64,000 nucleotides of DNA from positions 62,001-126,000 of the forward strand of contig JASTWF010000328.1 of assembly GCA_030390025.1 (NCBI GenBank), read 5' to 3'. Below, piece by piece: positions 26,125 to 50,544 of the stretch. This DNA is from Squalus acanthias. Taxonomy: Eukaryota. The position numbers and the translations under genes are program-made. The notes under the pieces are model-generated. The model was not told the origin of the DNA and searched no databases. It saw only the letters and a program-made list of their open reading frames with translations. Every line of letters starts with the position of its first letter. The first letter of the stretch is position 1.

Positions 26125-27866
26125 AAACAATTGACAAAAAGGGAGAAAATAGAATGAGAGTCAATTAGCAAGAAATATAAAAACAGACTGTAAGAGCTTC
26201 TACAAGTATGTGAAAAGGACGAGAGTAGCAAAAGCAAGTGTTGGTCCATTAGAGGCTGAGACAGGAGAAATTAAATTGGGGAACAAGGAAATGGCAGAGA
26301 CTTTAAATAAATATGTTTTATCTGTCTTCACAGTAGAAGACACAAAAAGTAAACCAAAAATAGTGGGGAACCAAGGGGCTACTGAGAGTGAGGAACTTAA
26401 AGTCATTAATATCAGTAGAGAAAAAGTACTTGAGAAACTAATGGGACTAAAAGCCGACAAATCCCCTGGACCTGACGGCCTACATCCTAGGGTTCTAAAA
26501 GAGAAGGCTGTGGAGATAGTGGATTCATTGGTTGTGATCTTCTAAAATTCCCTAGATTCAGGAATGGTCCCAGCGGATTGGAAGGTAATAAATGTAACCC
26601 CGCTATTCAAGAAAGGAGGGAGAGAGACAACAGGGAACTACAGGCCAGTTAGCCTGACATCAGTTGTTGGGAAAATGCTGGAATCCATTATTAAGGAAGT
26701 GGTATCAGGGCACTTAGAAAATCATAATATGATTAGGCAGAGTCAACATGGTTTTATGAAAGGTAAATTGTGTTTGACAAATTTATTGGAGTTTTTTGAG
26801 AATGGAACTAGCAGGGTAGATAAAGGGGAACCAGTGGATGTGGTATATTTGGATTTCCAAAAGGCATTCGGTAAGGTGCTACATAAGAGGTTCTTAAGCA
26901 AGATAAGGGCACATGGGGTTGGAGGTAATGTGTTGGCATGGATAGAGGATTGGTTAACAGACAGAAAAGAGAGTAGGGATAAATGGGTCATTTTCAGATT
27001 GGCAGGCTGTAACTAGTGGGGTGCCGCAAGGATCAGTGCCTCAGCTATTTACAATCCATATTAATGACTTAGATGAAGGGACTGAGTGCAATGTGTCCAA
27101 GTTTGCTGATGATACAAAGCTAGGTGGGACAGTAAGCTGTGAGGAGGACACAAAGAGCCTGCAAAGGGATATGGACAGGTTAAGTGAATGGGAAAAAAGA
27201 TGGCAGATGGAGTATAATGTGGGGAAATGTGAGGTTATTCACTTTGGTAGGACGAACAGAAAAATAGAATATTTTTTAAATGGTGGTAAACTATTAAATG
27301 TTGGTGTCCAGAGAGATTTAGGTGTCTTCGTACAAGAAACACAGAGAGTTAGCAAGCAGGTACAGCAGCAATTAGGAAGGCAAATGGCATGTTGGCCTTT
27401 ATTGCAAGGGGGTTGGAGTATAAGAGTAAGGAAGTCTTGCTACAATTGTACAGGGCTTTGGTGAGACCACACCTGGAGTACTGTGCACAGTTTTGGTCTC
27501 CTTATTTAAGGAAGGATATAGCTGCCTTCGAGGCGGTGCAACAAAGGTTCACTAGATTGATCCCTGGGATGAGAAGGTTGTCCTATGAGGAGAGGTTGAG
27601 TAGATTGGGCCTATACTCTGGAGTTTAGAAGAATGAGAGGTGATCTCATTGAAACATATAAGATTATGAGGGGGATTGACAGGGTAGATGCTGAGAGGCT
27701 GTTTCTCCTGGCTGGAGAGTCGAGAACTAGGGGGCATAGTCTCAGGACAAGAGGGTCGGCCTTTTAAGACAGAGATCAGGAGAAATGTCTTCACTCAGAG
27801 GGTTGTAAATCTTTGGAATTCTCTGTCCCAAAATGTTGTGGATGCTCAGTGGTTGAGTATATTGAA
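26125..27866 (+). mobile_element. CR1 LINE (duplicate of 18865-20775), left part; resumes at 49829-50005
   Basis: Near-identical to 18865-20609. Confidence 0.9.
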
Positions 27867-27915
27867 ATGAGAAGTCGCACAACACCAGGTTATAGTCCAA
27901 CAGATTTATTTAATT

Positions 27916-27954
27916 TTACAAGCTTTCGGAACAGTTCGCTCCTTCGTCAGGTAA
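27916..27954 (-). ncRNA. Minimal hammerhead ribozyme motif (left arm)
   Basis: Minus strand ttac-CTGACGA-a-ggagc gaact gttcc-GAAA-gctt-gtaa. Confidence 0.75.
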
Positions 27955-28157
27955 GTTAGCAGTGACAGAATCTCCCAGAATTCACAATTTAAACACAGAC
28001 AAAATATATTCAAATCTTTCCTACATCAAAGAGCACAGCCAAGACAATGAGATGTGTCCCAGGGGATCCAACGTGTCAAACCACCTGCTGGCTGCATATC
28101 GAATATATTTTGTCTGTGTTTAAATTGTGAATTCTGGGAGATTCTCTCACTGCTAAC

Positions 28158-28196
28158 TTACCTGACGAAGGAGCGAACTGTTCCGAAAGCTTGTAA
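28158..28196 (+). ncRNA. Minimal hammerhead ribozyme motif (right arm)
   Basis: ttac-CTGACGA-a-ggagc gaact gttcc-GAAA-gctt-gtaa; stem I ttac/gtaa, palindromic AAGCTT at stem III. Confidence 0.75.
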
Positions 28197-28298
28197 AATT
28201 AACTAAATCTGTTGGACTATAACCTGGTGTTGATCTTTTGGTTGGACAAACACAAATTTACTGCAAATCAATTAAAACTTTAAATGAAACTTAACAAA

Positions 28299-31200
28299 TC
28301 AAATCAAAATTTGGAAGTCCGGGGTGACGATGCACTCCAGTCCCCGCGGCGCCCACCGGTCGCGGAAAAACTCAAGCGTGCCGGCGGACACCGCGTGCTC
28401 CATCTCCAGGGCCACCCGGGCGCGAACATGGCCGCGGAAGAGAGGCAGGCAATCGGGCCGAACGACCCCCTCGACCGCCCGCTGCCTGGACCAATTAATG
28501 GCTTTCTTGGCCAGGCCCAGGAGCAGTCCTACGAGGAGGTCCTCCGACCTACCCGCTCCCCTCCGCACCGGGTGACCGTAGATCAGGAGCGTGGGGCTGA
28601 AGTGCAACCAGAAATTGAGGAGCAGCCCCTTCAAATAATGAAAGAGGGGCTGCAACCTCTCACACTCAATATAAATGTGATAGACGGACTCCTCTAGGCC
28701 GCAGAAATGACAAGCAGCCTGGGAGTCCGTAAACCTACTTAAAATCCTATTGCACGGGACTGCTCCGTGCAACACCCTCCAGGCCAAGTCCCCAATAGAA
28801 CAAGGGAAGACTCCCGCGTAGAGAGCCTTCCAATGGGGACCTTCGCCTCCGCCGGACGGCAGGATGGTACGCCAAGGCGTGTCCGGACGGCAGACGAAGA
28901 TGGCAAAGTGGAGAGTGTGCAGGAGCAGCCCGTACAGGAAACGCCTCCGTGCGGATTGAAAGGGCACGGAGGGCATTTCTCCGAGAAGGCTCAAGTGGTG
29001 AGGCGGCGGCTCCCGAGGGAGGATTCGGGGCCGGGCGCCGATAAGGAATTCCGTCCGAACGGGGGTCAGTTCGGACGGGATCGCCCCACGTGCTTGAGCC
29101 TCCTCGACACACCTAGTGGAGACGGGGCCCAGTGCCACTTTTAGCGACTCGATGGCTTTGACCGCGAGCCGGACGTTGACCCAAGACATGCGCCTCGCCA
29201 ACTCCTCCGGCGCCATCCAGCCCGCTCCTCCGCCATCGAGCAGGTCCCCGACTCTGGTCACCTTACCGGGCACAGCCCTGCCCTCCGCCAGCCAGCCGAA
29301 CCCGCGGTCGTGGAGGTGCGGATTCCTGAACAGCGGCTCCCGAAGGACGGCCGCCGCTCCTGACGGGGGAGAACTGCGCTCGGAGGCGACGCTGTTCCAA
29401 ACCCATAGCAGTTCCTGGTAGAAGACAGGCAGCTCCCGCAGGCTGGCACGCGTGCCACCCACTCTCACAAACAGGAGCTGCGTGTCGTAATTGAGGCCGT
29501 GCAGCTGGCGGAAGAAATACGTCGCCAGCGCACGCCACCTAGGAGGATTCTCCACGTACAGGTATCTCTGCAGCGTCTGAAGACGGAAAGTCGCCGCCTG
29601 GGTGCGAAGGCACACCAGCGCCTGACCGCCCTCCCTAAGCGGGAGACTCAAAACCGCGGCAGAGACCCAGTGCTTCCTTTTGTCCCAGAAGAAGTCGACG
29701 AGCTTCTTCTGCATCTTGGCGACAAACGCAGGGGGAGGGATCAAAGTGATCAACCGGTACCACAACATGGCGGCCACCTGCTGGTTTATGACCAGCGCTC
29801 GACCCCTGTAGGACAACACTCGGAGCAACCCCGTCCAGCGTCCTAGGCGAGCGGTGACCTTGGCCTCCAGCTCTTGCCAGTTCGCCGGCCAGGCGTCCTC
29901 GGCCGGGCTGAGGTAGACTCCCAGGTAGAGGAGGTGCGTGGTGCTCCAGGCGAAAGGCCCGAACTCCTCCGGCAGGGAGTCCACCTGCCATGGGCCCACC
30001 AGGAGTCCAGAACATTTCTCCCAGTTGATCTTGGCGGAGGATGCGTCCGAGTAAATCTGCTGGCATTCTCGCATCCTCCGCAAGTCGACGGGATCCGTGA
30101 CCGCGAGGAGCACGTCATCGGCGTAAGCCGAGAGGACCACCTCCACGCCCGGCCCTTGCAGAGCCAGTCCCGTCAACCTCTTCCGCAAGAGGCGCAGGAA
30201 AGGCTCCACGCAAACGGCGTATAACTGACCGGACATGGGGCATCCCTGACGCACCCCCCTCCCGAAGCGAAGGGGCGCCGTCAAAGACCCGTTAACTTTA
30301 ATGAGACACTCCGCGGCGGCGTACAGAAGTCGGATCCGGGCGACGAAATGCGTCCTGAACCCGAATGCGCGCAGAGTCCCGAAAAGATACTCGTGATCCA
30401 CCCTGTCGAACGCCTTCTCCTGATCCAGGGAAAGGAAGGCGACCGACAGACCAGCCCTCTGGGAATGGTGGACCAGGTCCCGGACCAGATGGATGTTATC
30501 GTGGATACTCCGGCCCGGGACCGTGTAGGACTGGTCGGGGTGGATCATGCGGGCCAGCACGGTGCCAAGGCGAGCAGACATAGCCCTGGCGAAAATTTTG
30601 TAGTCCGTGCTGAGGAGGGAGACCGGGCGCCAGTTCTTAAGTAGGCGGAGATCGCCCTTCTTGGGCAGCAGGACGATGACCGCCCTGCGCCAAGAGAGGG
30701 GCATCTCCCCGGTCGCCAGACTTTCCCCCAGGACCCGCGCGTAGTCGTCCCCCAAGACGTCCCAGAACGCCCTGTGGAACTCCACGGTCAGCCCGTCCAG
30801 CCCCGGGGACTTGCCCCTCGAGAGCTGGCGCAGGGCGCCGGTCAGCTCCGCCAGGCTTAGCGGAGCTTCTAAATTCTCGGCGCCCTCCGGGCCGACCTTC
30901 GGCAGGTCCTCCCACAAAACTCTGCGCGCATCCTCGCTGGACGGATCCGAAGAGAACAGAGCCCCGTAATAGGCCCGGGCCTCCGCGCTGATGCCCTCCG
31001 GATCCGAGACCAGAGATCCGTCGTCGGCCAGCAGCCCCAAGAGCTGCTTACGGACCCCCCGTCTTTTTTCCAGCGAGTAGAAGAAGGGGGAGCCGCGGTC
31101 CAGGTCCCGCAGGAACTGGATCCGCGACCTCACGTACGCGCCTCGGGACCCGACCAGCTGCAGGTCCTTCAGCGCGCCCTTCTTCTCTTCGTACACCTTC

Positions 31201-32198
31201 CGCAGGGCCGGGTCCTCGACGACTTGACCGAGACGGGACTCCAGGTCGAGCACTTCTTTCTCCAATCGCCCGACCCGGGCCTCCCGCCTCTTGGTCGACC
31301 CCTTCGCGTACTCCTGACAGAAGACGCGGACGTGAGCCTTGCCCACGTCCCACCATAGCCTCAAGGAGGGGAAGCCTCCCCGCTTCCTTCTCCAGTCGGC
31401 CCAGAACCGGCGAAACGAATCCCGGAACCGCGCGTCCTCCAGCAGCAGGTTGTTAAAATGCCAGTACGCGGACCCCCCCCGTGCGCGCAGCGGAGCGAGC
31501 TCCGCCCACACCAGGTGGTGGTCCGTGCACGGCACCGGCCGCATGGAAGCCGCCGGAACGCAGGAGACGTACGCCCGGGAAATGTAAAGGCGGTCGATTC
31601 TGGACCTTCCTCCTCCAGACCTCACGCTCGTGAAGGCGCTGGAGTCGGGATGGAGATTTCGCCAGACGTCCACCAAGTCGAAGGACCCGACCAGGTCCCG
31701 CAACTTCTCCATCGCCGCCGGGCTTCGCGGGGGACCCGACCGGTCCCGCGCCTCGAGGGTACAATTGAAATCCCCCCCGAGGATGACGCACTCGCCCACG
31801 TCGATGGAGCCCAGAAGAGCGGACACTTCTCCGAAGAAGCGCACTTGCTGCGCACCGGTCCGGGGGGCGTACACGTTCACTAAATGGAGCGGCACGCCTC
31901 CCAGGCGAACAGTGACCTGGAGCAAGCGGCCCGGCACGTGCTCCTTGACCCTCAAGATCTCCGGCTGAAAATGCGGGGCCAGCAAGACAGCCACCCCGCA
32001 GGAATTGTTGGAGAGGTGACTCATGCTGACCCCTCCTTGCCACTCCAGGAGCCACGTGGCCTCGTCTCCCGGAACGGTGTGGGTTTCTTGCAGGAAGCAC
32101 ACCGCATATTTCCCGTCCCGAAGGACCGAGAAGTTATTGAATCTACGGCGCGCCTCCCTGCTGCCATTGATGTTGAGGCTGGCTATGGTTATCTTCAT
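28299..32198 (-). CDS. Tx1 ORF2 (APE endonuclease, RT, C-terminal zinc finger), copy A
   Basis: SLNING, FLQETH, GGDFNC, SRIDR, TDHH; LDQEKAFD, RQGCP, YADD; CHFC..H..C; ATG at MKITIAS. Confidence 0.93.
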   Translation of the reverse strand: MKITIASLNINGSREARRRFNNFSVLRDGKYAVCFLQETHTVPGDEATWLLEWQGGVSMSHLSNNSCGVAVLLAPHFQPEILRVKEHVPGRLLQVTVRLGGVPLHLVNVYAPRTGAQQVRFFGEVSALLGSIDVGECVILGGDFNCTLEARDRSGPPRSPAAMEKLRDLVGSFDLVDVWRNLHPDSSAFTSVRSGGGRSRIDRLYISRAYVSCVPAASMRPVPCTDHHLVWAELAPLRARGGSAYWHFNNLLLEDARFRDSFRRFWADWRRKRGGFPSLRLWWDVGKAHVRVFCQEYAKGSTKRREARVGRLEKEVLDLESRLGQVVEDPALRKVYEEKKGALKDLQLVGSRGAYVRSRIQFLRDLDRGSPFFYSLEKRRGVRKQLLGLLADDGSLVSDPEGISAEARAYYGALFSSDPSSEDARRVLWEDLPKVGPEGAENLEAPLSLAELTGALRQLSRGKSPGLDGLTVEFHRAFWDVLGDDYARVLGESLATGEMPLSWRRAVIVLLPKKGDLRLLKNWRPVSLLSTDYKIFARAMSARLGTVLARMIHPDQSYTVPGRSIHDNIHLVRDLVHHSQRAGLSVAFLSLDQEKAFDRVDHEYLFGTLRAFGFRTHFVARIRLLYAAAECLIKVNGSLTAPLRFGRGVRQGCPMSGQLYAVCVEPFLRLLRKRLTGLALQGPGVEVVLSAYADDVLLAVTDPVDLRRMRECQQIYSDASSAKINWEKCSGLLVGPWQVDSLPEEFGPFAWSTTHLLYLGVYLSPAEDAWPANWQELEAKVTARLGRWTGLLRVLSYRGRALVINQQVAAMLWYRLITLIPPPAFVAKMQKKLVDFFWDKRKHWVSAAVLSLPLREGGQALVCLRTQAATFRLQTLQRYLYVENPPRWRALATYFFRQLHGLNYDTQLLFVRVGGTRASLRELPVFYQELLWVWNSVASERSSPPSGAAAVLREPLFRNPHLHDRGFGWLAEGRAVPGKVTRVGDLLDGGGAGWMAPEELARRMSWVNVRLAVKAIESLKVALGPVSTRCVEEAQARGAIPSELTPVRTEFLIGARPRILPREPPPHHLSLLGEMPSVPFQSARRRFLYGLLLHTLHFAIFVCRPDTPWRTILPSGGGEGPHWKALYAGVFPCSIGDLAWRVLHGAVPCNRILSRFTDSQAACHFCGLEESVYHIYIECERLQPLFHYLKGLLLNFWLHFSPTLLIYGHPVRRGAGRSEDLLVGLLLGLAKKAINWSRQRAVEGVVRPDCLPLFRGHVRARVALEMEHAVSAGTLEFFRDRWAPRGLECIVTPDFQILI

Positions 32199-32223
32199 CT
32201 CAGAAGCATAGTGCAACCTCTAC

Positions 32224-34381
32224 CTAACGGAGGGGAGGGAGGGCGGTCACTGACGACCGCCACTCCCTCAGCAGCCCAGTGTGGAAGCTCTTGAGCCGAC
32301 GCAGCTCGAGCCGGCCAACGTCCTTGTCCGCGCCCATGATTTTAACGGCGGCGCGGATGGACACGACGAGCAGCGCCAGCTCCGACCACTTGTCGAGGGC
32401 CAGCCGGATCTTCTTGTGACGACCCTGGCTCACGGCCATAAAATCCCGGAGTTCCCCTACGGGGATGAGGGGAGAGTCGGTGAAGGGCACGAGGGCGTCC
32501 ATCACCTCGCTGCCGATGGACTCCAAATCGTCCTCGTTGCCCAACACCGAGTCCCCGTCCTCCTCCGGGAGGTCGTCACCGGCGGCCAACCCGTCCGTCA
32601 CACAGGGTGCAGCGAACGGCTCGGCCGCACCGGCCGGCCCCGCCTCCGTCACGATCCCACCCCCAGGATCGGTGGCAGAGGAGTCCACCCTGGGCTCCTT
32701 CAGGGGCGCCGGGCCGGGAGGCGGCGGCGGCGGTTCGGGGCCCCCCCCCGCCTCAGGCGCCGGAGCGACCGGAGAAACCGGGGAGAAAATAATCTCAATT
32801 TCCTCCAGCACGTCCGGCGCCAACATCAGAGACGGAGTCAGGGGGCTTTCTGTCTCCCCGCCACCAACCTCCGACCCAGCGGGCTGGGGATTGTTAAAGT
32901 CCTCCACCAGGTCGAGCAGTCCCTGGGAGATATCTGGATTGTAAAAGGCGGGCTCGGCTTCAGCCTCTTTGGCCTCGCCCGCCCCAGTCCCCAGGACGCC
33001 CGACCCGGCGAGGAGCAACGGTTCCGTAACTACATTTCCCTCCGCGGGTTGTTCCGCGCCCCCCCCCCACAGGCAGGGTCTCTTCCCCATCCCCGGGAGG
33101 CACAGGTCGGACAGACTCGGCTGTCTCACCCTCCCGAGGGACAGACGACCCCTGCCGATCGCGCGCGACGATGACGGTGGTGGGGTGGGGCGCAGCACCC
33201 GCGGCGGGCGACTGCCCCCCTTTTGCGGAGGGACCTTCCTCCTCGCAGTCCTCCTGCTGGGGGCGGAGCTTTCTTTTTAACAAGTTGGGGCCCGGAGAGG
33301 GGGAGGCCTCCATGTCTGCTGGGGCCTCCCTCTCTGCCCCCTTCCGACGACTGGGTTTCTTGGGCCCCTCGGGCCCGAGCCCGGCCGCAGGTCTTGATTT
33401 AGCCGCCTCGGCGGTTGCGGTCACGGTCACGGGCCCGGGCACGAGGACCCCCCCAGTCTCATGCGTCCCGACCAACTCCGCGATATACTCGGGCGTGAGT
33501 TCGGTCAATTCCGATGTTTCCTCCGCGAGGGGATCCGCCCTTAGGTGTTTAGTTTTCCTACGCGCCTTCCTTCCCCCCGGACGCTCTCCCTCCTCCCCGC
33601 CGGAGGCCGTGGTGGTGTTGGCCTCCGATTTCGACCGCGCATCCGTCGCCGTCGACGCGCGGACAGTATCAGGGGGAGGGGGGGCGGCGGCGCCAACCCT
33701 GGCCGCGCCAGGTGTCGTGGCGGCCTTGGAGGCGGGGCAGTTTTTGCGGACGTGCCCCACCTCCTTACAGGCGTAGCACCGCACGCCGTCCGAGGTCCAG
33801 AAGACGCGGTGGGCGGTGCCCCCGTGGAGCACCGTGAACGCGCCGTCCGCGTCCTCCTCCCGCGCCAGCCGGACGAAAAGCTGGCGCCGGAAGGAGAAGA
33901 CGTGCCGAAGGCTGGCTTCCCGGAAGCCGAGCGGGATGGGTGTGATCCCCGACCTCACCTCCCCCAGTTGACGTAGGTGGGGGAGGAGGAGCTCACCCGG
34001 AACAAAGGGCGGGACGTTGGAAACCACAATCCTTTGCGCGGTGGCCTCAAGGGGGTCCACCGGCAGGAAGGTCCCGCCCACGGTGAGCCCCTTCTCGATG
34101 GCCAGGGACACCGCCCGCTCCGACCCCAGGAAGAACACAGCCTTGCCGTACATTTTAGAGGCGGCGACGATGGCTGAAGGGCCGACAACCCCAGCCATGG
34201 CTTTTACACACGCCTCTATTGTCATATTGGGGTGAGTGTAGCTCTTGACCCCATTCTTCCTCGTAAGGAGGGTAAAAGGTGACGGGGTAACAGGAGGACT
34301 CGTGGCTGCGGCCGTGGCCGCGGCTGCCACGCTCGCATACGTCCTCGCTGCCCCCGCCACCGACGAAGATGTACTCGCCAT
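32224..34381 (-). pseudogene. Tx1 ORF1 copy A, +1 frameshift in a homopolymer at ~33059-33068
   Basis: C10 versus C9 in copy B; CYACKEVGHVRKNC knuckle; may be a sequencing error. Confidence 0.75.
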
Positions 34382-39375: not shown

Positions 39376-39400
39376 CTCAGAAGCATAGTGCAACCTCTAC

Positions 39401-41557: not shown

Positions 41558-42713
41558 AATGGAGGGTTCTTTAAGGGCTACACTCACCCCAAGTCACAGG
41601 CCTGAAGGTGTTAATGGCCTTGGTTTTTTTTTGTTTTAGTTTTCCCCTGAGCAGAGGGAGCTCTTAAATTGAAGGCACACCTCTCCCTTTAGTTGATTGA
41701 ATTGGGAGAGGGGCCTTCTCCCCTCTGCTCAATGGGTACTTAATTAAAAATAGATGAGGTGCCTCTTAGAGAGAGAGGCAGAGAGAGACAAGAGACAAAG
41801 AGAGAGAGAGAGGGGGTGGAAGGAGGGAAGCCGCACGGGCAGGGTCGCCACTCAGGATGGTGGGTGGGTGGGTGTTGGCAGGGGGGGTGCACTCTCCGAT
41901 GTAATAAAAGTCTTTGGTGGTGGTGGTCTTCTGGTGGGGGGAGAAGATGTCTTCACCTGGGATAGCTGGAGATGCCCAGGCTCAGTCCTGCACCAGGTCT
42001 TAACGATGCCCAATTGGATTAAATTAATTGGGGAACTTCACCTAGGCAGCTCCAGCTGTCCCAGGTCAGGCAATGGGAAAGGGGTGTTTAATATGGTGTG
42101 TGCGGCCTAGCTTTTACAGAAGCCACACACACTCACACACACACCCCTTAGATGTTCCGGCCTTCTTTTCTTCTTTCCTCCCCCCACCTACAAAACAAAG
42201 TCTCTGGGAGAGTGCCCCAGAATCACACCCACCTGTAGCTGTTGTTCTTTCCTTCCTCCCTCCTTCCAAACAGATGATGGATGTTGTCGATGTTTTCTCC
42301 CCTCTCTCCCTCTCCTTAAATGGAGGCCAATTGAGGAGGCAGTGTGGAAAGGCCTCTCCTTTGATGTTGATGGCCTTGGCCTTCCCTTCTTTTCACTCTC
42401 CTCTCCTGTCCTCTCTCTCCAGGCACCTCAGTTGTGGTTGTTGGTTGTTGGTGGTGGCCTGCTGTCTGGTCTCCTTCTCCTTCTCCTCTTCCTGCTCACA
42501 GAGACCACCACTCTGCTGCTGCTGCTCCTCCGTCAGCAGCTCCGAAAGCTTGTGATTTCAAATAAAGCTGTTCGACTATAACCTGGTGTTGATCTTTTTG
42601 GTTTGACAGAACGCAAATTTACTGTAAATCAATTAAAACTTGAAATGAAACTTAATAAATCAAATTAAAATTTGAAAGTCCGGGGTGACGATGCACTCCA
42701 GTCCCCGCGGCGC

Positions 42714-45700
42714 TCACCGGTCACGGAAAAACTCAAGCGTGCCGGCGGACACCGCGTGCTCCATCTCCAGGGCCACCCGGGCGCGAACATGGCCGCGGAA
42801 GAGAGGCAGGCAATCGGGCCGAACGACCCCCTCGACCGCCCGCTGCCTGGACCAATTAATGGCTTTCTTGGCCAGGCCCAGGAGCAGTCCTACGAGGAGG
42901 TCCTCCGACCTACCCGCTCCCCTCCGCACCGGGTGACCGTAGATCAGGAGCGTGGGGCTGAAGTGCAACCAGAAATTGAGGAGCAGCCCCTTCAAATAAT
43001 GAAAGAGGGGCTGCAACCTCTCACATTCAACATAAATGTGATAAACGGACTCCTCCAGGCCGCAAAAATGGCAAGCAGCCTGGGAGTCCGTAAACCTACT
43101 TAAAATCCTATTGCACGGGACTGCTCCGTGCAACACCCTCCAGGCCAAGTCCCCAATAGAACAAGGGAAGACTCCCGCGTAGAGAGCCTTCCAATGGGGA
43201 CCTTCGCCTCCGCCGGACGGCAGGATGGTACGCCAAGGCGTGTCCGGACGGCAGACGAAGATGGCAAAGTGGAGAGTGTGCAGGAGCAGCCCGTACAGGA
43301 AACGCCTCCGTGCGGATTGAAAGGGCACGGAGGGCATTTCTCCGAGAAGGCTCAAGTGGTGAGGCGGCGGCTCCCGAGGGAGGATTCGGGGCCGGGCGCC
43401 GATAAGGAATTCCGTCCGAACGGGGGTCAGTTCGGACGGGATCGCCCCACGTGCTTGAGCCTCCTCGACACACCTAGTGGAGACGGGGCCCAGTGCCACT
43501 TTTAGCGACTCGATGGCTTTGACCGCGAGCCGGACGTTGACCCAAGACATGCGCCTCGCCAACTCCTCCGGCGCCATCCAGCCCGCTCCTCCGCCATCGA
43601 GCAGGTCCCCGACTCTGGTCACCTTACCGGGCACAGCCCTGCCCTCCGCCAGCCAGCCGAACCCGCGGTCGTGGAGGTGCGGATTCCTGAACAGCGGCTC
43701 CCGAAGGACGGCCGCCGCTCCTGACGGGGGAGAACTGCGCTCGGAGGCGACGCTGTTCCAAACCCATAGCAGTTCCTGGTAGAAGACAGGCAGCTCCCGC
43801 AGGCTGGCACGCGTGCCACCCACTCTCACAAACAGGAGCTGCGTGTCGTAATTGAGGCCGTGCAGCTGGCGGAAGAAATACGTCGCCAGCGCACGCCACC
43901 TAGGAGGATTCTCCACGTACAGGTATCTTTGCAGCGTCTGAAGACGGAAAGTCGCCGCCTGGGTGCGAAGGCACACCAGCGCCTGACCGCCCTCCCTAAG
44001 CGGGAGACTCAAAACCGCGGCAGAGACCCAGTGCTTCCTTTTGTCCCAGAAGAAGTCGACGAGCTTCTTCTGCATCTTGGCGACAAACGCAGGGGGAGGG
44101 ATCAAAGTGACCAACCGGTACCACAACATGGCGGCCACCAGCTGGTTTATGACCAGCGCTCGACCCCTGTAGGACAACACTCGGAGCAGTCCTGTCCAGC
44201 GTCCTAGGCGAGCGGTGACTTTGGCCTCCAGCTCTTGCCAGTTCGCCGGCCAGGCGTCCTCGGCCGGGCTGAGGTAGACTCCCAGGTAGAGGAGGTGCGT
44301 GGTGCTCCAGGCGAAAGGCCCGAACTCCTCCGGCAGGGAGTCCACCCGCCATGGGCCCACCAGGAGTCCAGAACATTTCTCCCAGTTGATCTTGGCGGAG
44401 GATGCGTCCGAGTAAATCTGCTGGCATTCTCGCATCCTCCGCAAGTCGACGGGATCCGTGACCGCGAGGAGCACGTCATCGGCGTAAGCCGAGAGGACCA
44501 CCTCCACGCCCGGCCCTTGCAGAGCCAGTCCCGTCAACCTCTTCCGCAAGAGGCGCAGGAAAGGCTCCACGCAAACGGCGTATAACTGACCGGACATGGG
44601 GCATCCCTGACGCACCCCCCTCCCGAAGCGAAGGGGCGCCGTCAAAGACCCGTTAACTTTAATCAGACACTCCGCGGCGGCGTACAGAAGTCGGATCCGG
44701 GCGACGAAATGCGTCCCGAACCCGAATGCGCGCAGAGTCCCGAAAAGATACTCGTGATCCACCCTGTCGAACGCCTTCTCCTGATCCAGGGAAAGGAAGG
44801 CGACCGACAGACCAGCCCTCTGGGAATGGTGGACCAGGTCCCGGACCAGATGGATGTTATCGTGGATACTCCGGCCCGGGACCGTGTAGGACTGGTCGGG
44901 GTGGATCATGCGGGCCAGCACGGTGCCAAGGCGAGCAGACATAGCCCTGGCGAAAATTTTGTAGTCCGTGCTGAGGAGGGAGACCGGGCGCCAGTTCTTA
45001 AGTAGGCGGAGATCGCCCTTCTTGGGCAGCAGGACGATGACCGCCCTGTGCCAAGAGAGGGGCATCTCCCCGGTCGCCAGACTTTCCCCCAGGACCCGCG
45101 CGTAGTCGTCCCCCAAGACGTCCCAGAACGCCCTGTGGAACTCCACGGTCAGCCCGTCCAGCCCCGGGGACTTGCCCCTCGAGAGCTGGCGCAGGGCGCC
45201 GGTCAGCTCCGCCAGGCTTAGCGGAGCTTCTAAATTCTCGGCGCCCTCCGGGCCGACCTTCGGCAGGTCCTCCCACAAAACTCTGCGCGCATCCTCGCTG
45301 GACGGATCCGAAGAGAACAGAGCCCCGTAATAGGCCCGGGCCTCCGCGCTGATGCCCTCCGGATCCGAGACCAGAGATCCGTCGTCGGCCAGCAGCCCCA
45401 AGAGCTGCTTACGGACCCCCCGCCTTTTTTCCAGCGAGTAGAAGAAGGGGGAGCCGCGGTCCAGGTCCCGCAGGAACTGGATCCGCGACCTCACGTACGC
45501 GCCTCGGGACCCGACCAGCTGCAGGTCCTTCAGCGCGCCCTTCTTCTCTTCGTACACCTTCCGCAGGGCCGGGTCCTCGACGACTTGACCGAGACGGGAC
45601 TCCAGGTCGAGCACTTCTTTCTCCAATCGCCCGACCCGGGCCTCCCGCCTCTTGGTCGACCCCTTCGCGTACTCCTGACAGAAGACGCGGACGTGAGCCT

Positions 45701-46559
45701 TGCCCACGTCCCACCATAGCCTCAAGGAGGGGAAGCCTCCCCGCTTCCTTCTCCAGTCGGCCCAGAACCGGCGAAACGAATCCCGGAACCGCGCGTCCTC
45801 CAGCAGCAGGTTGTTAAAATGCCAGTACGCGGACCCCCCCCGCGCGCGCAGCGGAGCGAGCTCCGCCCACACCAGGTGGTGGTCCGTGCACGGCACCGGC
45901 CGCATGGAAGCCGCCGGAATGCAGGAGACGTACGCCCGGGAAATGTAAAGGCGGTCGATTCTGGACCTTCCTCCTCCAGACCTCACGCTCGTGAAGGCGC
46001 TGGAGTCGGGATGGAGATTTCGCCAGACGTCCACCAAGTCGAAGGACCCGACCAGGTCCCGCAACTTCTCCATCGCCGCCGGGCTTCGCGGGGGACCTGA
46101 CCGGTCCCGCGCCTCGAGGGTACAATTGAAATCCCCCCCGAGGATGACGCACTCGCCCACGTCGATGGAGCCCAGAAGAGCGGACACTTCTCCGAAGAAG
46201 CGCACTTGCTGCGCACCGGTCCGGGGGGCGTACACGTTCACTAAATGGAGCGGCACGCCTCCCAGGCGAACAGTGACCTGGAGCAAGCGGCCCGGCACGT
46301 GCTCCTTGACCCTCAAGATCTCCGGCTGAAAATGCGGGGCCAGCAAGACAGCCACCCCGCAGGAATTGTTGGAGAGGTGACTCATGCTGACCCCTCCTTG
46401 CCACTCCAGGAGCCACGTGGCCTCGTCTCCCGGAACGGTGTGGGTTTCTTGCAGGAAGCACACCGCATATTTCCCGTCCCGAAGGACCGAGAAGTTATTG
46501 AATCTACGGCGCGCCTCCCTGCTGCCGTTGATGTTGAGGCTGGCTATGGTTATCTTCAT
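42714..46559 (-). CDS. Tx1 ORF2, copy C, last 18 aa lost by TGG>TGA
   Basis: Ends FFRDR versus FFRDRWAPRG... in A and B. Confidence 0.9.
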   Translation of the reverse strand: MKITIASLNINGSREARRRFNNFSVLRDGKYAVCFLQETHTVPGDEATWLLEWQGGVSMSHLSNNSCGVAVLLAPHFQPEILRVKEHVPGRLLQVTVRLGGVPLHLVNVYAPRTGAQQVRFFGEVSALLGSIDVGECVILGGDFNCTLEARDRSGPPRSPAAMEKLRDLVGSFDLVDVWRNLHPDSSAFTSVRSGGGRSRIDRLYISRAYVSCIPAASMRPVPCTDHHLVWAELAPLRARGGSAYWHFNNLLLEDARFRDSFRRFWADWRRKRGGFPSLRLWWDVGKAHVRVFCQEYAKGSTKRREARVGRLEKEVLDLESRLGQVVEDPALRKVYEEKKGALKDLQLVGSRGAYVRSRIQFLRDLDRGSPFFYSLEKRRGVRKQLLGLLADDGSLVSDPEGISAEARAYYGALFSSDPSSEDARRVLWEDLPKVGPEGAENLEAPLSLAELTGALRQLSRGKSPGLDGLTVEFHRAFWDVLGDDYARVLGESLATGEMPLSWHRAVIVLLPKKGDLRLLKNWRPVSLLSTDYKIFARAMSARLGTVLARMIHPDQSYTVPGRSIHDNIHLVRDLVHHSQRAGLSVAFLSLDQEKAFDRVDHEYLFGTLRAFGFGTHFVARIRLLYAAAECLIKVNGSLTAPLRFGRGVRQGCPMSGQLYAVCVEPFLRLLRKRLTGLALQGPGVEVVLSAYADDVLLAVTDPVDLRRMRECQQIYSDASSAKINWEKCSGLLVGPWRVDSLPEEFGPFAWSTTHLLYLGVYLSPAEDAWPANWQELEAKVTARLGRWTGLLRVLSYRGRALVINQLVAAMLWYRLVTLIPPPAFVAKMQKKLVDFFWDKRKHWVSAAVLSLPLREGGQALVCLRTQAATFRLQTLQRYLYVENPPRWRALATYFFRQLHGLNYDTQLLFVRVGGTRASLRELPVFYQELLWVWNSVASERSSPPSGAAAVLREPLFRNPHLHDRGFGWLAEGRAVPGKVTRVGDLLDGGGAGWMAPEELARRMSWVNVRLAVKAIESLKVALGPVSTRCVEEAQARGAIPSELTPVRTEFLIGARPRILPREPPPHHLSLLGEMPSVPFQSARRRFLYGLLLHTLHFAIFVCRPDTPWRTILPSGGGEGPHWKALYAGVFPCSIGDLAWRVLHGAVPCNRILSRFTDSQAACHFCGLEESVYHIYVECERLQPLFHYLKGLLLNFWLHFSPTLLIYGHPVRRGAGRSEDLLVGLLLGLAKKAINWSRQRAVEGVVRPDCLPLFRGHVRARVALEMEHAVSAGTLEFFRDR

Positions 46560-46584
46560 CTCAGAAGCATAGTGCAACCTCTAC

Positions 46585-48742
46585 CTAACGGAGGGGAGGG
46601 AGGGCGGTCACTGACGACCGCCACTCCCTCAGCAGCCCAGTGTGGAACGTCTTGAGCCGACGCAGCTCGAGCCGGCCAACGTCCTTGTCCGCGCCCATGA
46701 TTTTAACGGCGGCGCGGACGGACACGACGAGCAGCGTCAGTTCCGACCACTTGTCGAGGGCCAGCTGGATCTTCTTGTGACGACCCTGGCTCACGGCCAT
46801 AAAATCCCGGAGTTCCCCTACGGGGATGAGGGGAGAGTCGGTGAAGGGCACGAGGGCGTCCATCGCCTCACTGCCGATGGACTCCAAATCGTCCTCGTTG
46901 CCCAACACCGAGTCCCCGTCCTCCTCCGGGAGGTCGTCACCGGCGGCCAACCCGTCCGTCACACAGGGTGCAGCGAACGGCTCGGCCGCACCGGCCGGCC
47001 CCGCCTCCGTCACGATCCCACCCCCAGGATCGGTGGCAGAGGAGTCCACCCTGGGCTCCTTCAGGGGCGCCGGGCCGGGAGGCGGCGGCGGCGGTTCGGG
47101 GCCCCCCCCCCGCCTCAGGCGCCGGGGCGACCGGAGAAACCGGGGAGAAAATAATCCCAAATTCCTCCAGCACGTCCGGCGCCAACAACAGAGACGGAGT
47201 CAGGGGGCTTTCCGTCTCCCCGCCACCAACCTCCGACCCAGCGGGCTGGGGATTGCTACACTCCTCCACCAGGTCGAGCAGTCCCTGGGAGATATCTGGG
47301 TTATAAAAGGCGGGCTCGGCTTCAGCCTCTTTGGCCTCGCCCGCCCCAGTCCCCAGGACGCCCGACCCGGCGAGGAGCAACGGTTCAGGTTCTACATTTT
47401 CTTCCGCGGGTTGTTCCGCGCCCCCCCCCACGGGCAGGGTCTCTTCCCCATCCCCGGGAGGCACAGGTCGGACAGACTCGGCTGTCTCACCCTCCCGAGG
47501 GACAGACGACCCCTGCCGATCGCGCGCGACGATGACGGTGGTGGGGTGGGGCGCAGCACCCGCGGCGGGCGACTGCCCCCCTTTTGCGGAGGGACCTTCC
47601 TCCTCGCAGTCCTCCTGCTGGGGGCGGAGCTTTCTTTTTAACGTATTGGGGCCCGGAGAGGGGGAGGCCTCCATGTCTGCTGGGGCCTCCCTCTCTGCCC
47701 CCTTCCGACGACTGGGTTTCTTGGGCCCCTCGGGCCCGAGCCCGGCCGCAGGTCTTGATTCAGCTGCCTCAGCAGTTGCCGTCACGGTCACGGGCCCGGG
47801 CACGAGGACCCCCCCAGTCTCATGCGTCCCGACCAACTCCGCGATATACTCGGGCGTGAGTTCGGTCAATTCCGATGTTTCCTCCGCGAGGGGATCCGCC
47901 CTTAGGTGTTTAGTTTTCCTACGCGCCTTCCTTCCCCCCGGACGCTCTCCCTCCTCCCCGCCGGAGGCCGTGGTGGTGTTGGCCTCCGATTTCGACCGCG
48001 CATCCGTCGCCGTCGACGCGCGGACAGTATCAGGGGGAGGGGGGGCGGCGGCGCCAACCCTGGCCGCGCCAGGTGTCGTGGCGGCCTTGGAGGCGGGGCA
48101 GTTTTTGCGGACGTGCCCCACCTCCTTACAGGCGTAGCACCGCGCGCCGTCCGAGGTCCAGAAGACGCGGTGGGCGGTCCCCCCGTGGAGCACCGTGAAC
48201 GCGCCATCCGCGTCCTCCTCCCGCGCCAGCCGGACGAAAAGCTGGCGCCGGAAGGAGAAGACGTGCCGAAGGCTGGCTTCCCGGAAGCCGAGCGGGATGG
48301 GTGTGATCCCCGACCTCACCTCCCCCAGTTGACGTAGGTGGGGGAGGAGGAGCTCACCCGGAACAAAGGGCGGGACGTTGGAAACCACAATCCTTTGCGC
48401 GGTGGCCTCAAGGGGGTCCACCGGCAGGAAGGTCCCGCCCACGGTGAGCCCCTTCTCGATGGCCAGGGACACCGCCCGCTCCGACCCCAGGAAGAACACA
48501 GCCTTGCCGTACATTTTAGAGGCGGCGACGATGGCTGAAGGGCCGACAACCCCAGCCATGGCTTTTACACACGCCTCTATAGTCATGTTGGGGTGAGTGT
48601 AGCTCTTGACCCCATTCTTCCTCGTAAGGAGGGTAAAAGGTGACGGGGTAACAGGAGGACTCGTGGCTGCGGCCGTGGCCGCGGCTGCCACGCTCGCGTA
48701 CGTCCTCGCTGCCCCCGCCACCGGCGAAGATGTGGTCGCCAT
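46585..48742 (-). pseudogene. Tx1 ORF1 copy C, +1 frameshift in a homopolymer at ~47102-47111
   Basis: C10 versus C9 in copy B; may be a sequencing error. Confidence 0.75.
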
Positions 48743-49776
48743 AATGGAGGGTTCTTTAAGGGCTACACTCACCCCAAGTCACAGGCCTGAAGGTGTTAAT
48801 GGCCTTGGTTTTTTTTGTTTTAGTTTTCCCCTGAGCAGAGGGAGCTCTTAAATTGAAGGCACACCTCTCCCTTTAGTTGATTGAATTGGGAGAGGGGCCT
48901 TCTCCCCTCTGCTCAATGGGTACTTAATTAAAAATAGATGAGGTGCCTCTTAGAGAGAGAGGCAGAGAGAGACAAGAGACAAAGAGAGAGAGAGAGGGGG
49001 TGGAAGGAGGGAAGCCGCAAGGGCAGGGTCGCCACTCAGGATGGTGGGTGGGTGGGTGTTGGCAGGGGGGTGCACTCTCCGATGTAATACAAGTCTTTGG
49101 TGGTGGTCTTCTGGTGGGGGGAGAAGATGTCTTCACCTGGGATAGCTGGAGATGCCCAGGCTCAGTCCTGCACCAGGTCTTAACGATGCCCAATAATATT
49201 AAGTTAATTGGGGACTTCACCTAGGCAGCTCCAGCTGTCCCAGGTCAGGCAATAGAAAGGGGGTGTTTAATATGGTGTGTGCGGCCTAGCTTTTACAAAA
49301 GCCACACACACACACACACACCCCTTGGATGTTCCGGCCTTCTTCTTTTTCTTCTTTCCTCCCCCCACCTACAAAACAAAGTCTCTGGGAGAGTGCCCCA
49401 GAATCACACCCACCTGTAGCTGCTGTTCTTTCCTTCCTTCCTCCTTCCAAACAGTTGATGGATGTTGTTGTTGTTTTCTCCCCTCTCTCCCTCTCCTAAA
49501 ATGGAGGCCAATTGAGGAGGCAGTGTGGAAAGGCCTCTCCTCTGGTGTTAATGGCCTTGGCCTTCCTTTCCTTCTTTTCTTCTCTTTCTCCTGTCCTCCC
49601 TCTCCAGGCACCTCAGTTGTGGTTGTTGGTTGTTGGTGGTGGTCTGCTGTCTGGTCTCCTTCTCCTTCTCCTCTTCCTGGTCACAGAGACCACCACTCTG
49701 CTGCTTCTGCTCCTTCGTCAGCAGCTCCGAAAGCTTGTGATTTCAAATAAAACTGTTGGACTATAACCTGGTGTTG

Positions 49777-49828
49777 TGCGACTTCTCATTTTTGTCCACC
49801 CAAGTCCAACGCCGGCATCTCCACATCA
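49777..49828 (+). mobile_element. Distal end of the interrupted PLE terminal repeat
   Basis: TGCGACTTCTCATTTTT continues 28232 exactly as at 21951-21967. Confidence 0.88.
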
Positions 49829-50544
49829 TGAGTATATTGAAGGCTGAGATAGTTAGATATTTGGACTCCAGAGGAATCAAGGGATATGGGGATAGGGCAG
49901 GAAAGTGGAGATGAGATAGTAGATCAGCCACGATCCTATTGAATGGCGGAGCAGGCTCGAGGGGCCGAATGGCCCACTCCTGCTCCTGATTCTTATGTTC
50001 TTATGTAAAATAGAAATCAGAGGGTTGGAGTTAAGGGAAGTTTGTTGCCATCTTTCCATCCATTCTGCTGCCTGACCCTTTGACTCCACACGGCCTGACC
50101 GTGGTCATCTTGTAGACCGTACATACTGCAGACACAGTGCACCAGTGGTGGAGGGGGTGGATATTGAGTCCTGTGGCAGGGGCTCTGATGAAGTTGATTT
50201 CTCCGTCCCGTGTATTTTCAGGCATCGCTAGTTGCGTTTTTCACCTCTTTCCACCTTTAAAAAAAAATCTTTTTGCCAGTTTATTAAAGCCATTAAAAAC
50301 CTTCCAGATAAGTCACACAAAAAAATGAGGCCTTGTATGTTTCCATCAAAATGACAGGCCTGAACTCGAGTTAGAAATCACAGTTAGAAAACATTCAGCA
50401 ATTAAACCAGACTGGGCGGGGACTGAGGTGCGAGTTAGTAATGGAAAAGTGGAGGCCAACGTCCTTTGCACCAGGGCTGAGGACCCGGGCACTAAGGTTT
50501 CTGTCTAATTTATTTATTAATTTTGTTTAATGCCCAATATTGCA

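What the first reader, a model, noticed from the sequence alone, without database searches (positions are those of the whole stretch)
27854..49841. Tx1 retrotransposon that appears to target the hammerhead-bearing repeat of a Penelope-like element
Seen: all four junctions of the three Tx1 copies (28232, 35411, 42591, 49776) fall immediately after GACTATAACCTGGTGTTG. Removing the array restores the PLE repeat ...GGTGTTG|TGCGACTTCTCATTTTT as found uninterrupted at 21927-21967 and, inverted, at 27867-27903. The site is 36 bp downstream of the PLE hammerhead motif, and Tx1 is antisense to it. Established: Tx1-clade elements often have sequence-specific APE endonucleases (Xenopus Tx1L targets the Tx1D transposon, Keno U2 snRNA genes, Mutsu 5S rDNA, Dewa tRNA arrays). 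Inference: this family uses a high-copy PLE terminal repeat as its safe-haven target. I do not know of a described Tx1 family with this target, but cannot confirm novelty without a search.
Basis: partly seen in the sequence, partly recalled or inferred. Interest (0 to 1): 0.92.

Follow-up and report, generated by a model that had tools for sequence, protein, structure and literature searches.

The report
Tx1 retrotransposon that targets Penelope-element tails
A jumping gene of the Tx1 type in this shark-like genome inserts almost only at one exact spot near the end of another, very abundant jumping gene (a Penelope-like element), and builds head-to-tail arrays there; the behaviour is known for Tx1 elements, but this target appears to be new.

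Summary
The window carries three 7.2-kb Tx1 units (minus strand, 98.3-98.9% alike). They lie inside a fold-back copy of a Penelope-like element (PLE), which itself sits in a CR1-like LINE with a 12-bp duplication. ORF2 is 50% identical over its full length to Xenopus Tx1L.

Genome-wide, 95 of 104 sampled 3' junctions are followed by CAACACCAGG. Of these, 64 run on into antisense PLE sequence of several subfamilies and 29 into the next Tx1 unit. All 14 array starts sampled are preceded by the other PLE half. The intact site occurs about 108,000 times.

Four off-target copies have 13-15-bp target duplications, three beginning CAACAC, so the real duplication is about 14-16 bp. Full-length copies also carry an inherited PLE-derived 5' leader of about 55-75 nt (37 of 37). 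This leader recreates the site and probably explains the 7.2-kb arrays.

The target is a true PLE 3' end (RT, GIY-YIG-like C-terminus, minimal hammerhead), 40 nt past the predicted ribozyme cut. Rfam does not recognise the hammerhead.

Tx1 families that target other transposons, and tandem insertions around a 16-bp duplication, are already published. This is therefore a new member with a new target, not a new principle.

The parts
27855..27866 (.). Left copy of the 12-bp target duplication (GAGTATATTGAA) made when the PLE fold-back copy inserted into a CR1-like LINE tail
   Evidence: The same 12-mer lies at 49830-49841. A paralogous copy of the LINE at 20242-20967 is continuous across this point (96.4% over 727 columns).
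27867..28011 (-). Inverted 5' arm of the PLE insertion (antisense copy of the PLE 3' end), carrying an unoccupied Tx1 site (motif 27880-27897 on the - strand)
   Evidence: Inverted repeat 27880-28011 / 28101-28232, 132 nt, 98% complementary. Sequence read. Motif found.
28101..28232 (+). Sense arm of the PLE 3' end up to the Tx1 nick site, with the hammerhead core starting at 28162. This is a B-type subfamily (..AAAATTAACTAAATCTGTTGG..).
28233..35411 (-). Tx1 unit 1 (7179 bp). ORF2 28299-32216 is open (1305 codons). ORF1 is split into two frames (32224-33198 and 32960-34411). The PLE-derived leader is about 35335-35411.
35412..42591 (-). Tx1 unit 2 (7180 bp). ORF2 35476-39393 is open (APE endonuclease, RT, zf-RVT). 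ORF1 39401-41587 is open (first Met at 41557, CCHC knuckle). The leader is about 42515-42591.
42592..49776 (-). Tx1 unit 3 (7185 bp). ORF2 42714-46577 ends 18 codons early (1287 codons). ORF1 is split (46585-47160 and 46937-48772). The leader is about 49700-49776.
49777..49829 (+). Remainder of the PLE 3' end after the Tx1 site: TGCGACTTCTCA plus a roughly 41-nt tail (TTTTTGTCCACCCAAGTCCAACGCCGGCATCTCCACATCAT)
   Evidence: Other PLE copies have the same tail or lack it.
49830..49841 (.). Right copy of the 12-bp target duplication of the PLE insertion
21555..21967 (+). Separate 5'-truncated PLE copy (end of the ORF, 3' UTR, hammerhead core at 21882) with the Tx1 site uninterrupted at 21950|21951. 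It is flanked by an 11-bp duplication, ATTTCCAACAA (21544-21554 and 21968-21978), inside another LINE.
20242..20967 (+). Paralogous CR1-like LINE tail without the PLE+Tx1 block (an empty site)

Best explanation
A young, abundant Tx1-clade LINE inserts in one orientation at one position of the conserved 3' end of a very abundant PLE. Its 25-27-nt probes give about 1,000-1,500 hits in the genome. Shown: in Tx1-sense the element sits between ...GAGAAGTCGCA and CAACACCAGGTTATAGTCC.... In PLE-sense this is GGTGTTG^TGCGAC, 40 nt after the predicted hammerhead cut and 12 nt before the PLE body ends. Inferred, by analogy with target-primed reverse transcription and with the published site-specific Tx1L endonuclease: the APE endonuclease nicks the PLE-sense strand at ^, and the ...GGTGTTG-3' end primes cDNA synthesis on an RNA ending ...AAAAAGA(U/G). 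The other strand is cut 14-16 nt away, giving a 14-16-bp duplication, CAACACCAGGTTATA(G). Shown: full-length copies carry a heritable PLE-derived 5' leader of about 55-75 nt that starts with this same sequence. Each insertion therefore rebuilds a complete site at its 5' border. Inferred: renewed insertion there, or at the downstream duplicate, builds the 7.2-kb head-to-tail arrays, and the leader may also act as a homology arm for joining the 5' end. Because PLE copies are 5'-truncated, their 3' ends are the most numerous part (about 108,000 sites). They are mostly dead copies, so they form a safe landing place.
For: Tx1 identity:
- ORF2 has Exo_endo_phos, RVT_1 and zf-RVT; ORF1 has zf-CCHC.
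- ORF2 is 50% identical over 99% of its length to YTX2_XENLA at 1389 bits. Human L1 ORF2p scores 285.7 bits.

Target abundance:
- The 28-mer across the intact site gives 108,208 hits at up to 1 mismatch; the reversed control gives 0.

3' junctions:
- Set A comes from the 173 hits of one tail variant. It has 84 distinct contexts: 46 PLE of 45 nt or more, 3 PLE of 24-45 nt, 18 next full-length unit, 6 spacer of up to 16 nt then Tx1 interior, 3 with 12-21 nt, and 8 with under 10 nt.
- Set B comes from the 1,088 hits of a conserved 27-mer. 60 places were asked for and 20 obtained: 15 PLE, 3 next unit, 1 with 18 nt, 1 off-target.
- Together, 95 of 104 junctions have at least 10 nt of CAACACCAGG.

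5' borders:
- 37 places were fetched from the 40 scored. All 37 carry the leader. 23 are preceded by a Tx1 3' end. 14 (11 distinct flanks) are preceded by the PLE left half.
- Leader/body junction variants recur at 7-8 separate loci each and differ between units of one array (C18:52756347-52777816). They are therefore inherited, and the units are separate insertions.
- The window's leaders are A-type although the local PLE arm is B-type.

Target duplication:
- Off-target copies have duplications CAACACCAGTGATG, CAACACCTAAAACAG, CAACACTCGAGGGCT and about 13-14 nt at L185.
- Spacers of 15-16 nt separate units in 5'-truncated arrays.

Arrays:
- 45 of the 100 listed 5'-UTR hits have a same-strand neighbour 7,145-7,201 bp away.

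PLE identity:
-.

Hammerhead:
-.
Against: - 9 of 104 3' junctions have under 10 nt of the motif and no PLE. Four of these are clear off-target insertions, so specificity is strong but not absolute.
- Nothing shows whether specificity lies in the endonuclease or in pairing of a read-through RNA 3' end (..CAACACC) with the nicked DNA. No enzyme or RNA data exist. No run listed is on record as RNA, and the one raw RNA run gave 0 reads.
- The samples are not random. They follow contig order, set A covers one tail variant, arrays contribute several junctions, and 40 of the 60 places planned for set B could not be fetched.
- Arrays of 5'-truncated units with identical truncation points (C18:15.297 Mb, C3256, C8, C2:150.17 Mb) look more like DNA-level amplification than repeated insertion.
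- Rfam finds no hammerhead at any threshold, and Pfam GIY-YIG does not hit this PLE directly.
- No tree was built for the Tx1 placement.
- The role of the leader in 5' joining is inference only.
Confidence: 0.82

Rival explanations
1. The three units are a local tandem (segmental) duplication of one chance insertion. The repeated motif at the borders only reflects copying of one junction, so there is no target specificity.
For: The units are head-to-tail with near-equal length. Some arrays elsewhere repeat an identical truncated unit, which fits DNA-level amplification.
Against: The same junction is found at 95 of 104 sampled 3' ends across many contigs. 14 of 14 array starts have the PLE left half. 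Units of one array carry different leader/body junction variants, each shared with other loci. The units in the window differ by 1.1-1.7% in a mosaic pattern.
Confidence: 0.04
2. CAACACCAGGTTATAG... is simply the element's own 3' end (a transduced PLE fragment), not a target. On this reading Tx1 inserts at random and carries the PLE piece with it.
For: Every 3' end sampled, including off-target ones, is followed by at least (C/G)AAC. The 5' leader shows that this family can carry PLE-derived sequence.
Against: The flanks continue for more than 45 nt into at least three different PLE subfamilies and into whole PLE fold-back structures. The left PLE half is present upstream in 14 of 14 cases. 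Removing the array in the window restores an intact PLE inside its own 12-bp duplication. In off-target copies the CAACAC is part of a locus-specific 14-15-bp duplication present on both sides, so it was in the genome before insertion.
Confidence: 0.04
3. The specificity lies mainly in RNA-DNA pairing, not in the endonuclease. Read-through transcripts end in target sequence (..GAU CAACACC..) and can prime only where a nick exposes ...GGTGTTG-3'. The endonuclease itself would be relaxed.
For: All three clear off-target duplications begin with CAACAC, exactly at the primer end. Array members are followed by another copy of the motif, so read-through RNAs would carry it. According to PMC4494074 (passage citing Eickbush 2000 and Fujimoto 2004), cotranscription with the target strengthens target-specific integration.
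Against: According to PMC4494074 (passages), target choice in non-LTR elements is mainly set by the endonuclease, and that paper cites Christensen et al. 2000 for Tx1L; the original was not available to me. A fixed second-strand cut 14-16 nt away also suggests recognition of the DNA. The two mechanisms are not exclusive.
Confidence: 0.1

Closest known systems
Xenopus laevis Tx1L (ORF2 = YTX2_XENLA), which inserts into the non-autonomous piggyBac-type transposon Tx1D
   Same: Same clade: ORF2 is 50% identical over 99% of its length. It has an APE endonuclease, RT and a C-terminal zinc motif, and ORF1 has a CCHC knuckle. It inserts at one site in one orientation inside another, abundant transposon (PMC4494074, passage).
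   Different: The target here is the 3' end of a retroelement (PLE), not a DNA transposon. Full-length copies carry a target-derived 5' leader, and about half of them lie in 7.2-kb head-to-tail arrays. Endonuclease specificity is not tested here.
Crocodilian Tx1-Mar families and SINEU-3, which target Mariner-N4_AMi (Kojima 2015, PMC4494074)
   Same: A Tx1 lineage specialised on a high-copy transposon. [quoted passage not shown] This is the same geometry as the 15-16-nt spacers seen here.
   Different: The target and host lineage differ. Here the autonomous element itself forms long arrays, and the spacer in full-length arrays is a heritable leader of 55-75 nt rather than a bare duplication.
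Tx1-8_Crp / Tx1-4_AMi (inserted into specific LTR retrotransposons) and Tx1-9_AMi (Harbinger) (PMC4494074, section 15)
   Same: They show that Tx1 families can specialise on other retrotransposons and transposons.
   Different: A PLE is not among the targets named in the parts of that paper I read, and the word 'Penelope' does not occur in it (listing).
R2 and R1 elements of rDNA
   Same: Site-specific LINEs for which target sequence carried on the RNA is thought to help precise integration (PMC4494074, passage citing Eickbush 2000 and Fujimoto 2004).
   Different: They belong to different clades (R2 has a restriction-like endonuclease). Their target is a host gene, and the carried sequence is upstream target, not a copy of the downstream half-site.
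Canonical EN+ Penelope-like elements (Penelope/Poseidon, Neptune, Nematis): the target, not the finding
   Same: RT followed by a C-terminal GIY-YIG-type domain, heavy 5' truncation, an adjacent inverted 5'-truncated copy, a tail of 30-40 bp at one end, and a hammerhead motif in the terminal region (PMC8557442 passages, compared).
   Different: I did not determine which PLE clade it belongs to. The hammerhead has an extra A after A9. Partial-tandem pLTRs were not examined.

Membership tests
Tx1 clade of non-LTR retrotransposons | ORF2 with an N-terminal APE-type endonuclease followed by a reverse transcriptase | tested here: met
   Exo_endo_phos at residues 12-233 (E 1.7e-11), RVT_1 at 518-767 (E 8.4e-38), and zf-RVT at 1127-1187 (23.7 bits, below its cut-off of 27.5).
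Tx1 clade of non-LTR retrotransposons | Closer to Tx1L than to L1 in ORF2 | tested here: met
   YTX2_XENLA: 1389 bits, 50% identity, 99% coverage. Human L1 ORF2p chains: 281-286 bits. No phylogenetic tree was built.
Tx1 clade of non-LTR retrotransposons | ORF1 with a zinc knuckle (CCHC); feature recalled, not taken from a call | tested here: met
   zf-CCHC at residues 211-226, 21.5 bits against a cut-off of 20.8. An RRM was not detected by Pfam.
Target-specific Tx1 family (criterion of Kojima 2015: one sequence type in more than 20% of flanks) | One kind of flanking sequence, at a fixed position and in a fixed orientation | tested here: met
   95 of 104 3' junctions carry the motif. 64 of 104 run directly into PLE and 29 into another Tx1 unit (28 of those carry the motif; L091 does not). 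14 of 14 outer 5' borders have the PLE left half.
Target-specific Tx1 family | Sequence-specific nicking by the endonuclease domain | not testable with these tools
   This needs a recombinant endonuclease assay. Only indirect evidence exists: off-target duplications begin with CAACAC.
Penelope-like element (the target) | [quoted passage not shown] | tested here: met
   The 587-aa ORF in L082 hits RVT_1 (E 1.5e-8). Pfam GIY-YIG does not hit the 219-aa C-terminus directly. However, that C-terminus aligns (E 1e-28) to residues 698-869 of homolog P0168, whose Pfam GIY-YIG hit is at 811-852. Several homologs carry PF01541.
Penelope-like element (the target) | Heavy 5' truncation, adjacent inverted 5'-truncated copy, tail of 30-40 bp | tested here: met
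   5' ends vary among 29 copies. Inverted pairs are common. A tail of about 41 nt is present in some copies and absent in others.
Penelope-like element (the target) | Partial tandem copies forming pseudo-LTRs | not tested
Hammerhead ribozyme (minimal type I, as reported for PLEs) | Conserved core CUGANGA ... GAAA with the N position free | tested here: met
   C, U, G, A, G, A are invariant in 75 distinct copies, and N7 varies among C, A, U and G. There is an extra A between A9 and helix II in all copies. That such an insertion is tolerated is recalled from viroid work, not tested.
Hammerhead ribozyme (minimal type I, as reported for PLEs) | Helices I and II supported by pairing and covariation; helix III minimal | tested here: met
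   Helix II is 98.7% paired. Three helix I pairs are solid, one with a compensatory UA (41) / CG (29) change. The covariation score is 0.125 against 0.088 in shuffles (0 of 500 shuffles reach it). Slid controls pair in 21-50% of cells. Helix III is one A-U pair around GC (the palindrome AGCU). The alignment was chosen by a downstream motif, and the copies are related.
Hammerhead ribozyme (minimal type I, as reported for PLEs) | Match to a curated hammerhead model | tested here: not met
   No Rfam hit at gathering score, at E up to 10 on 32 kb, or at E up to 10 on 121 nt. The review PMC6155905 (passages) says PLE hammerheads usually lack helix III, which may explain the miss.
Hammerhead ribozyme (minimal type I, as reported for PLEs) | Self-cleavage | not testable with these tools
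   This needs in vitro transcription of monomer and dimer constructs.

The most novel reading that the evidence does not exclude
This Tx1 lineage has made a piece of its own target part of itself. The heritable PLE-derived 5' leader lets every full-length insertion carry a fresh landing site and a homology arm for 5' joining. The element therefore extends its own head-to-tail arrays and integrates at full length unusually often (1,030 5'-UTR hits against 1,455 mid-ORF2 hits). In short, it is a LINE that brings its landing pad with it while parasitising the one sequence that every PLE copy must keep.
Probability: 0.45. Interest if true: 0.62.

Novelty: new member of a known kind. Interest (0 to 1): 0.45.

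Why it matters
The finding adds a retroelement of a different class (a PLE) to the list of things a Tx1 endonuclease can be tuned to. It comes with a very large natural data set: about 108,000 sites, over 1,000 insertions, and off-target events with clean duplications. From these the recognition rules (CAACAC at the nick, second cut 14-16 nt away) can be read directly. Site-specific LINEs are being developed as tools for safe-harbour gene insertion (I saw only the search listing and abstract start of PMC11371274). A new, well-defined APE-type specificity, and a natural case of a self-renewing target, would be of use there. It also gives a concrete case of one retroelement living on the indispensable 3' end of another. 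Finally, it explains part of the 7-kb tandem arrays that complicate assembly of shark-type genomes. It does not change the known principle.

Tried and rejected
- Rfam gave no hammerhead or any credible family. This held for the whole window at gathering score, for 20-52 kb at E up to 10, and for 121 nt at E up to 10. The hammerhead therefore rests on my own alignment and pair counts.
- Pfam GIY-YIG did not hit the PLE C-terminus directly. It was shown through a homolog instead.
- Expression: no listed holder is on record as RNA. The one raw RNA run gave 0 laid reads, which is no test. Contig runs X1, X2 and X10 hold parts of the stretch, but no listed piece bridges the unit border with 31 letters on both sides. 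Nothing can be said about transcription or the RNA 5' end.
I used short stretches instead, so 5' and 3' ends of the same full-length copy were seen together only in the window.
- Of the 7 off-target candidates fetched, L183 gave no clear duplication, L184 was not 5'-truncated within 1.5 kb, and L186 is rearranged.
- Conservation of the site among hammerhead-selected PLE copies was dropped as evidence, because the loci had been chosen by the site or by Tx1.
- Earlier findings of this scan: three look-ups gave nothing.
- Christensen et al. 2000 on the Tx1L endonuclease is not held. It is cited only through PMC4494074.
- I considered and rejected the idea that the PLE inserts next to Tx1 rather than the reverse. 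The PLE's own 12-bp duplication encloses the whole block, and intact PLE sites outnumber Tx1 copies about 100 to 1.
Full report
**What is in the window**

The 18-mer GACTATAACCTGGTGTTG occurs six times in the window and never in 100 shuffles. Four occurrences end at 28232, 35411, 42591 and 49776. These delimit three head-to-tail units of 7179, 7180 and 7185 bp. The units are 98.3-98.9% identical, and their differences come in blocks shared by different pairs of units.

Each unit, read on the minus strand, carries:
- a 5' region rich in simple repeats;
- an ORF1, open only in unit 2 (728 codons, CCHC knuckle);
- an ORF2 of 1305 codons, open in units 1 and 2 and ending 18 codons early in unit 3.

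ORF2 has an APE-type endonuclease, a reverse transcriptase and a C-terminal zinc motif. It is 50% identical over 99% of its length to the Xenopus Tx1 149-kDa protein (1389 bits). Human L1 ORF2p scores 286 bits. It is therefore a Tx1-clade element. I built no tree.

**The surroundings**

The block 27867-49829 is an insertion into the tail of a CR1-like LINE and is flanked by a 12-bp duplication, GAGTATATTGAA. A paralogous copy of that LINE at 20242-20967, part of a segmental duplication that also holds a zinc-finger gene, runs straight through the point at 96.4% identity.

Without Tx1, the insert is a 419-bp fold-back:
- an antisense arm at 27867-28011;
- a sense arm at 28101-28232, which continues after the array as TGCGACTTCTCA plus a tail of about 41 nt (49777-49829).

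Removing the array therefore restores ...GGTGTTG|TGCGACTTCTCA. The same sequence is seen uninterrupted at 21950|21951 in a second copy (21555-21967, with its own 11-bp duplication) and in the antisense arm.

**What the target is**

A probe from the second copy finds copies 96-98% identical with varied 5' ends. The longest copies extend into an ORF. A 587-codon frame in locus L082 hits RVT_1. Its relatives are mostly unnamed proteins of sharks (up to 91% identity), turtles, amphibians and invertebrates, and several carry Pfam GIY-YIG.

The C-terminal 219 residues do not reach Pfam GIY-YIG themselves. They do align at E 1e-28 with a relative across its GIY-YIG hit.

Four features match the published hallmarks of endonuclease-bearing Penelope-like elements (PMC8557442, abstract and passages):
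- RT plus a C-terminal GIY-YIG domain;
- heavy 5' truncation;
- an adjacent inverted truncated copy;
- a 30-40-bp tail at one end.

The Tx1 site lies about 300 nt after the stop codon and 12 nt before the end of the PLE body.

**The hammerhead**

Rfam finds none. In an alignment of 75 distinct copies, the core C-U-G-A-N-G-A and GAAA are invariant while N varies.

For the structure I proposed:
- helix II is paired in 98.7% of cells;
- three helix I pairs hold, one with a compensatory UA/CG change (41 and 29 copies);
- versions slid by 1-3 columns pair in only 21-50% of cells.

Helix III is reduced to one A-U pair around GC, giving the palindrome AGCU. This fits the review statement that PLE hammerheads are minimal and lack helix III (PMC6155905, passages). 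An extra A follows A9. The copies are related and were selected by a downstream motif, so this is support, not proof. Cleavage is untested. The predicted cut is at 21910|21911, 40 nt before the Tx1 site.

**Is the association more than local?**

The window's genome (3.7 Gb) could be searched. The 28-mer spanning the intact site occurs 108,208 times at up to one mismatch, and the reversed control gives none. Tx1 probes of 25-27 nt give 1,030 hits (5' UTR), 1,455 hits (mid-ORF2) and 1,088 hits (3' region).

I read 104 distinct 3' junctions:
- 84 from the 173 hits of one tail variant;
- 20 from a more conserved 3' probe.

Of the 104, 95 are followed by at least 10 nt of CAACACCAGG. Their continuations are:

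| Continuation | Junctions |
|---|---|
| Antisense PLE of at least three subfamilies, often into whole fold-back copies | 64 |
| Another Tx1 unit | 29 (28 carry the motif; L091 does not) |
| 12-21 nt of the motif, then other DNA | 3 |

The remaining nine junctions have fewer than 10 nt of the motif, and one of them (L091) is among the 29.

At the other end I read 37 of the 40 best 5'-UTR matches. Two of the 40 were the window itself and one lay at a contig end. All 37 begin with the same PLE-derived leader. 23 are preceded by a Tx1 3' end. 14 (11 distinct flanks) are preceded by the other PLE half...GGAGATGCCGGTGTTGGACTGGGGTGGACAAAANTGAGAAGTCGCA. A truncated array on contig 18 shows the same left border.

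**Mechanistic reading**

Seven of the short-motif junctions were fetched with 1.5 kb upstream. Four are plain off-target insertions of 5'-truncated copies with duplications of 13-15 bp. Three of these duplications begin CAACAC (CAACACCAGTGATG, CAACACCTAAAACAG, CAACACTCGAGGGCT). The other three were uninformative.

So the genome already held CAACAC at the nick, and the second-strand cut lies 14-16 nt away. This agrees with the 15-16-nt spacers CAACACCAGGTTATA(G) between truncated units. It also resembles the 16-bp duplications and 'tandem insertions sandwiching a TSD' described for Tx1-mobilised SINEU-3 (PMC4494074, passages).

The 55-75-nt leader of full-length copies is longer than any duplication, and three observations show that it is not local:
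- In the window it is A-type although the local arm is B-type.
- It is A-type in 37 of 37 copies, whereas many of the true right-hand flanks belong to other (B- or C-type) subfamilies.
- Idiosyncratic leader/body junctions such as ..AAGCTTGTGGTGAGCAGCAG.. and ..GCTGCTGACTGAGGAGCAG.. recur at seven or eight separate loci each and differ between neighbouring units of one array.

The leader is therefore inherited with the element, and array units are separate insertions. Because the leader starts with the right half-site, each full-length insertion rebuilds a complete site at its 5' border. 45 of the 100 listed 5'-UTR hits have a same-strand neighbour 7,145-7,201 bp away.

Two steps remain inference: that renewed insertion at this rebuilt site makes the arrays, and that the leader helps 5' joining. 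Arrays of truncated units with identical truncation points may instead have grown by DNA-level amplification.

**What remains open**

- Whether the endonuclease or RNA-DNA pairing sets the specificity.
- Where transcription starts. No usable RNA data were found.
- Which PLE clade the target belongs to.
- Whether the family is already in Repbase or Dfam.

**Comparison and novelty**

Tx1-clade families are known to be target-specific for the following (PMC4494074, passages and section 15):
- the piggyBac-type Tx1D;
- U2 genes;
- microsatellites;
- Mariner-N4_AMi;
- Harbinger transposons;
- particular LTR retrotransposons.

Four full-text searches found no report of a Tx1 or other LINE that targets a Penelope-like element. 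The whale-shark genome paper only notes that Tx1 and Penelope repeats are present (PMC8455134, passages). I therefore file this as a new member of a known kind with a new target class. The inherited landing-pad leader is its most unusual trait. Interest is moderate.

Noticed in passing
window 16568-20967 versus 23930-27866 plus 49842-50200: Segmental duplication carrying a C2H2 zinc-finger gene and a CR1-like LINE. The joined flanks of the PLE+Tx1 block align to 20242-20967 at 96.4%. The ORFs at 16568-17884 and 23930-25048 begin with the same residues. Only the second copy received the PLE+Tx1 block.
   Followed up: partly
window 4445-5260, 10321-11038, 16933-17879, 24295-25139, 53326-54170, 56541-57555, 62394-62868: Seven arrays of 84-bp (28-codon) C2H2 zinc-finger repeats on both strands. 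The window lies in a zinc-finger gene cluster.
   Followed up: no
G000 C18:15297776-15300344; C3256:711057-712745; C8:141707978-141710908; C2:150174924-150183962: Tandem arrays of 5'-truncated Tx1 units with the same truncation point repeated. The periods are about 763/782, 287, about 332 and 2289 bp, and the first two have 15-16-nt CAACACC.. spacers. They may be satellite-like amplification or re-mobilised truncated units; this is unresolved.
   Followed up: partly
L026 (G000 C402:13373-16397): One Tx1 3' end has a run of about 29 A in place of ..AAAAAGAT CA before ACACCAGGTTATAG.
   Followed up: no
window 21544-21978: A 413-bp 5'-truncated PLE copy sits inside the RT region of another LINE, with an 11-bp duplication ATTTCCAACAA. 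The host LINE frame resumes right after it.
   Followed up: yes
PLE copies in L039-L080: The PLE 3' end exists in two forms: ending at ..GCGACTTCTCA(TTTT), or extended by a tail of about 41 nt, GTCCACCCCAGTCCAACACCGGCATCTCCGCATCATG. The tail itself contains CAACACC in PLE-sense. I did not check whether Tx1 ever uses that second motif.
   Followed up: no
window 54328-54655: A 39-bp tandem repeat, 8.5 copies, 86% matches.
   Followed up: no
window 41900-43100 against public runs: Runs of seven coded organisms (A-G) hold 31-56% of the sampled 31-mers of the unit border region. Near-identical Tx1 and PLE sequence therefore exists in several data sets or species. Independence from the source of the window is unknown.
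   Followed up: partly
window units 1-3 (28233-49776): Differences between the three units are block-wise: unit 3 is the odd one at unit positions 1-720 and 6716-6761, and unit 1 at 760-1220, 2390-2660 and 5567-5676. This suggests recombination or template switching between lineages.
   Followed up: no
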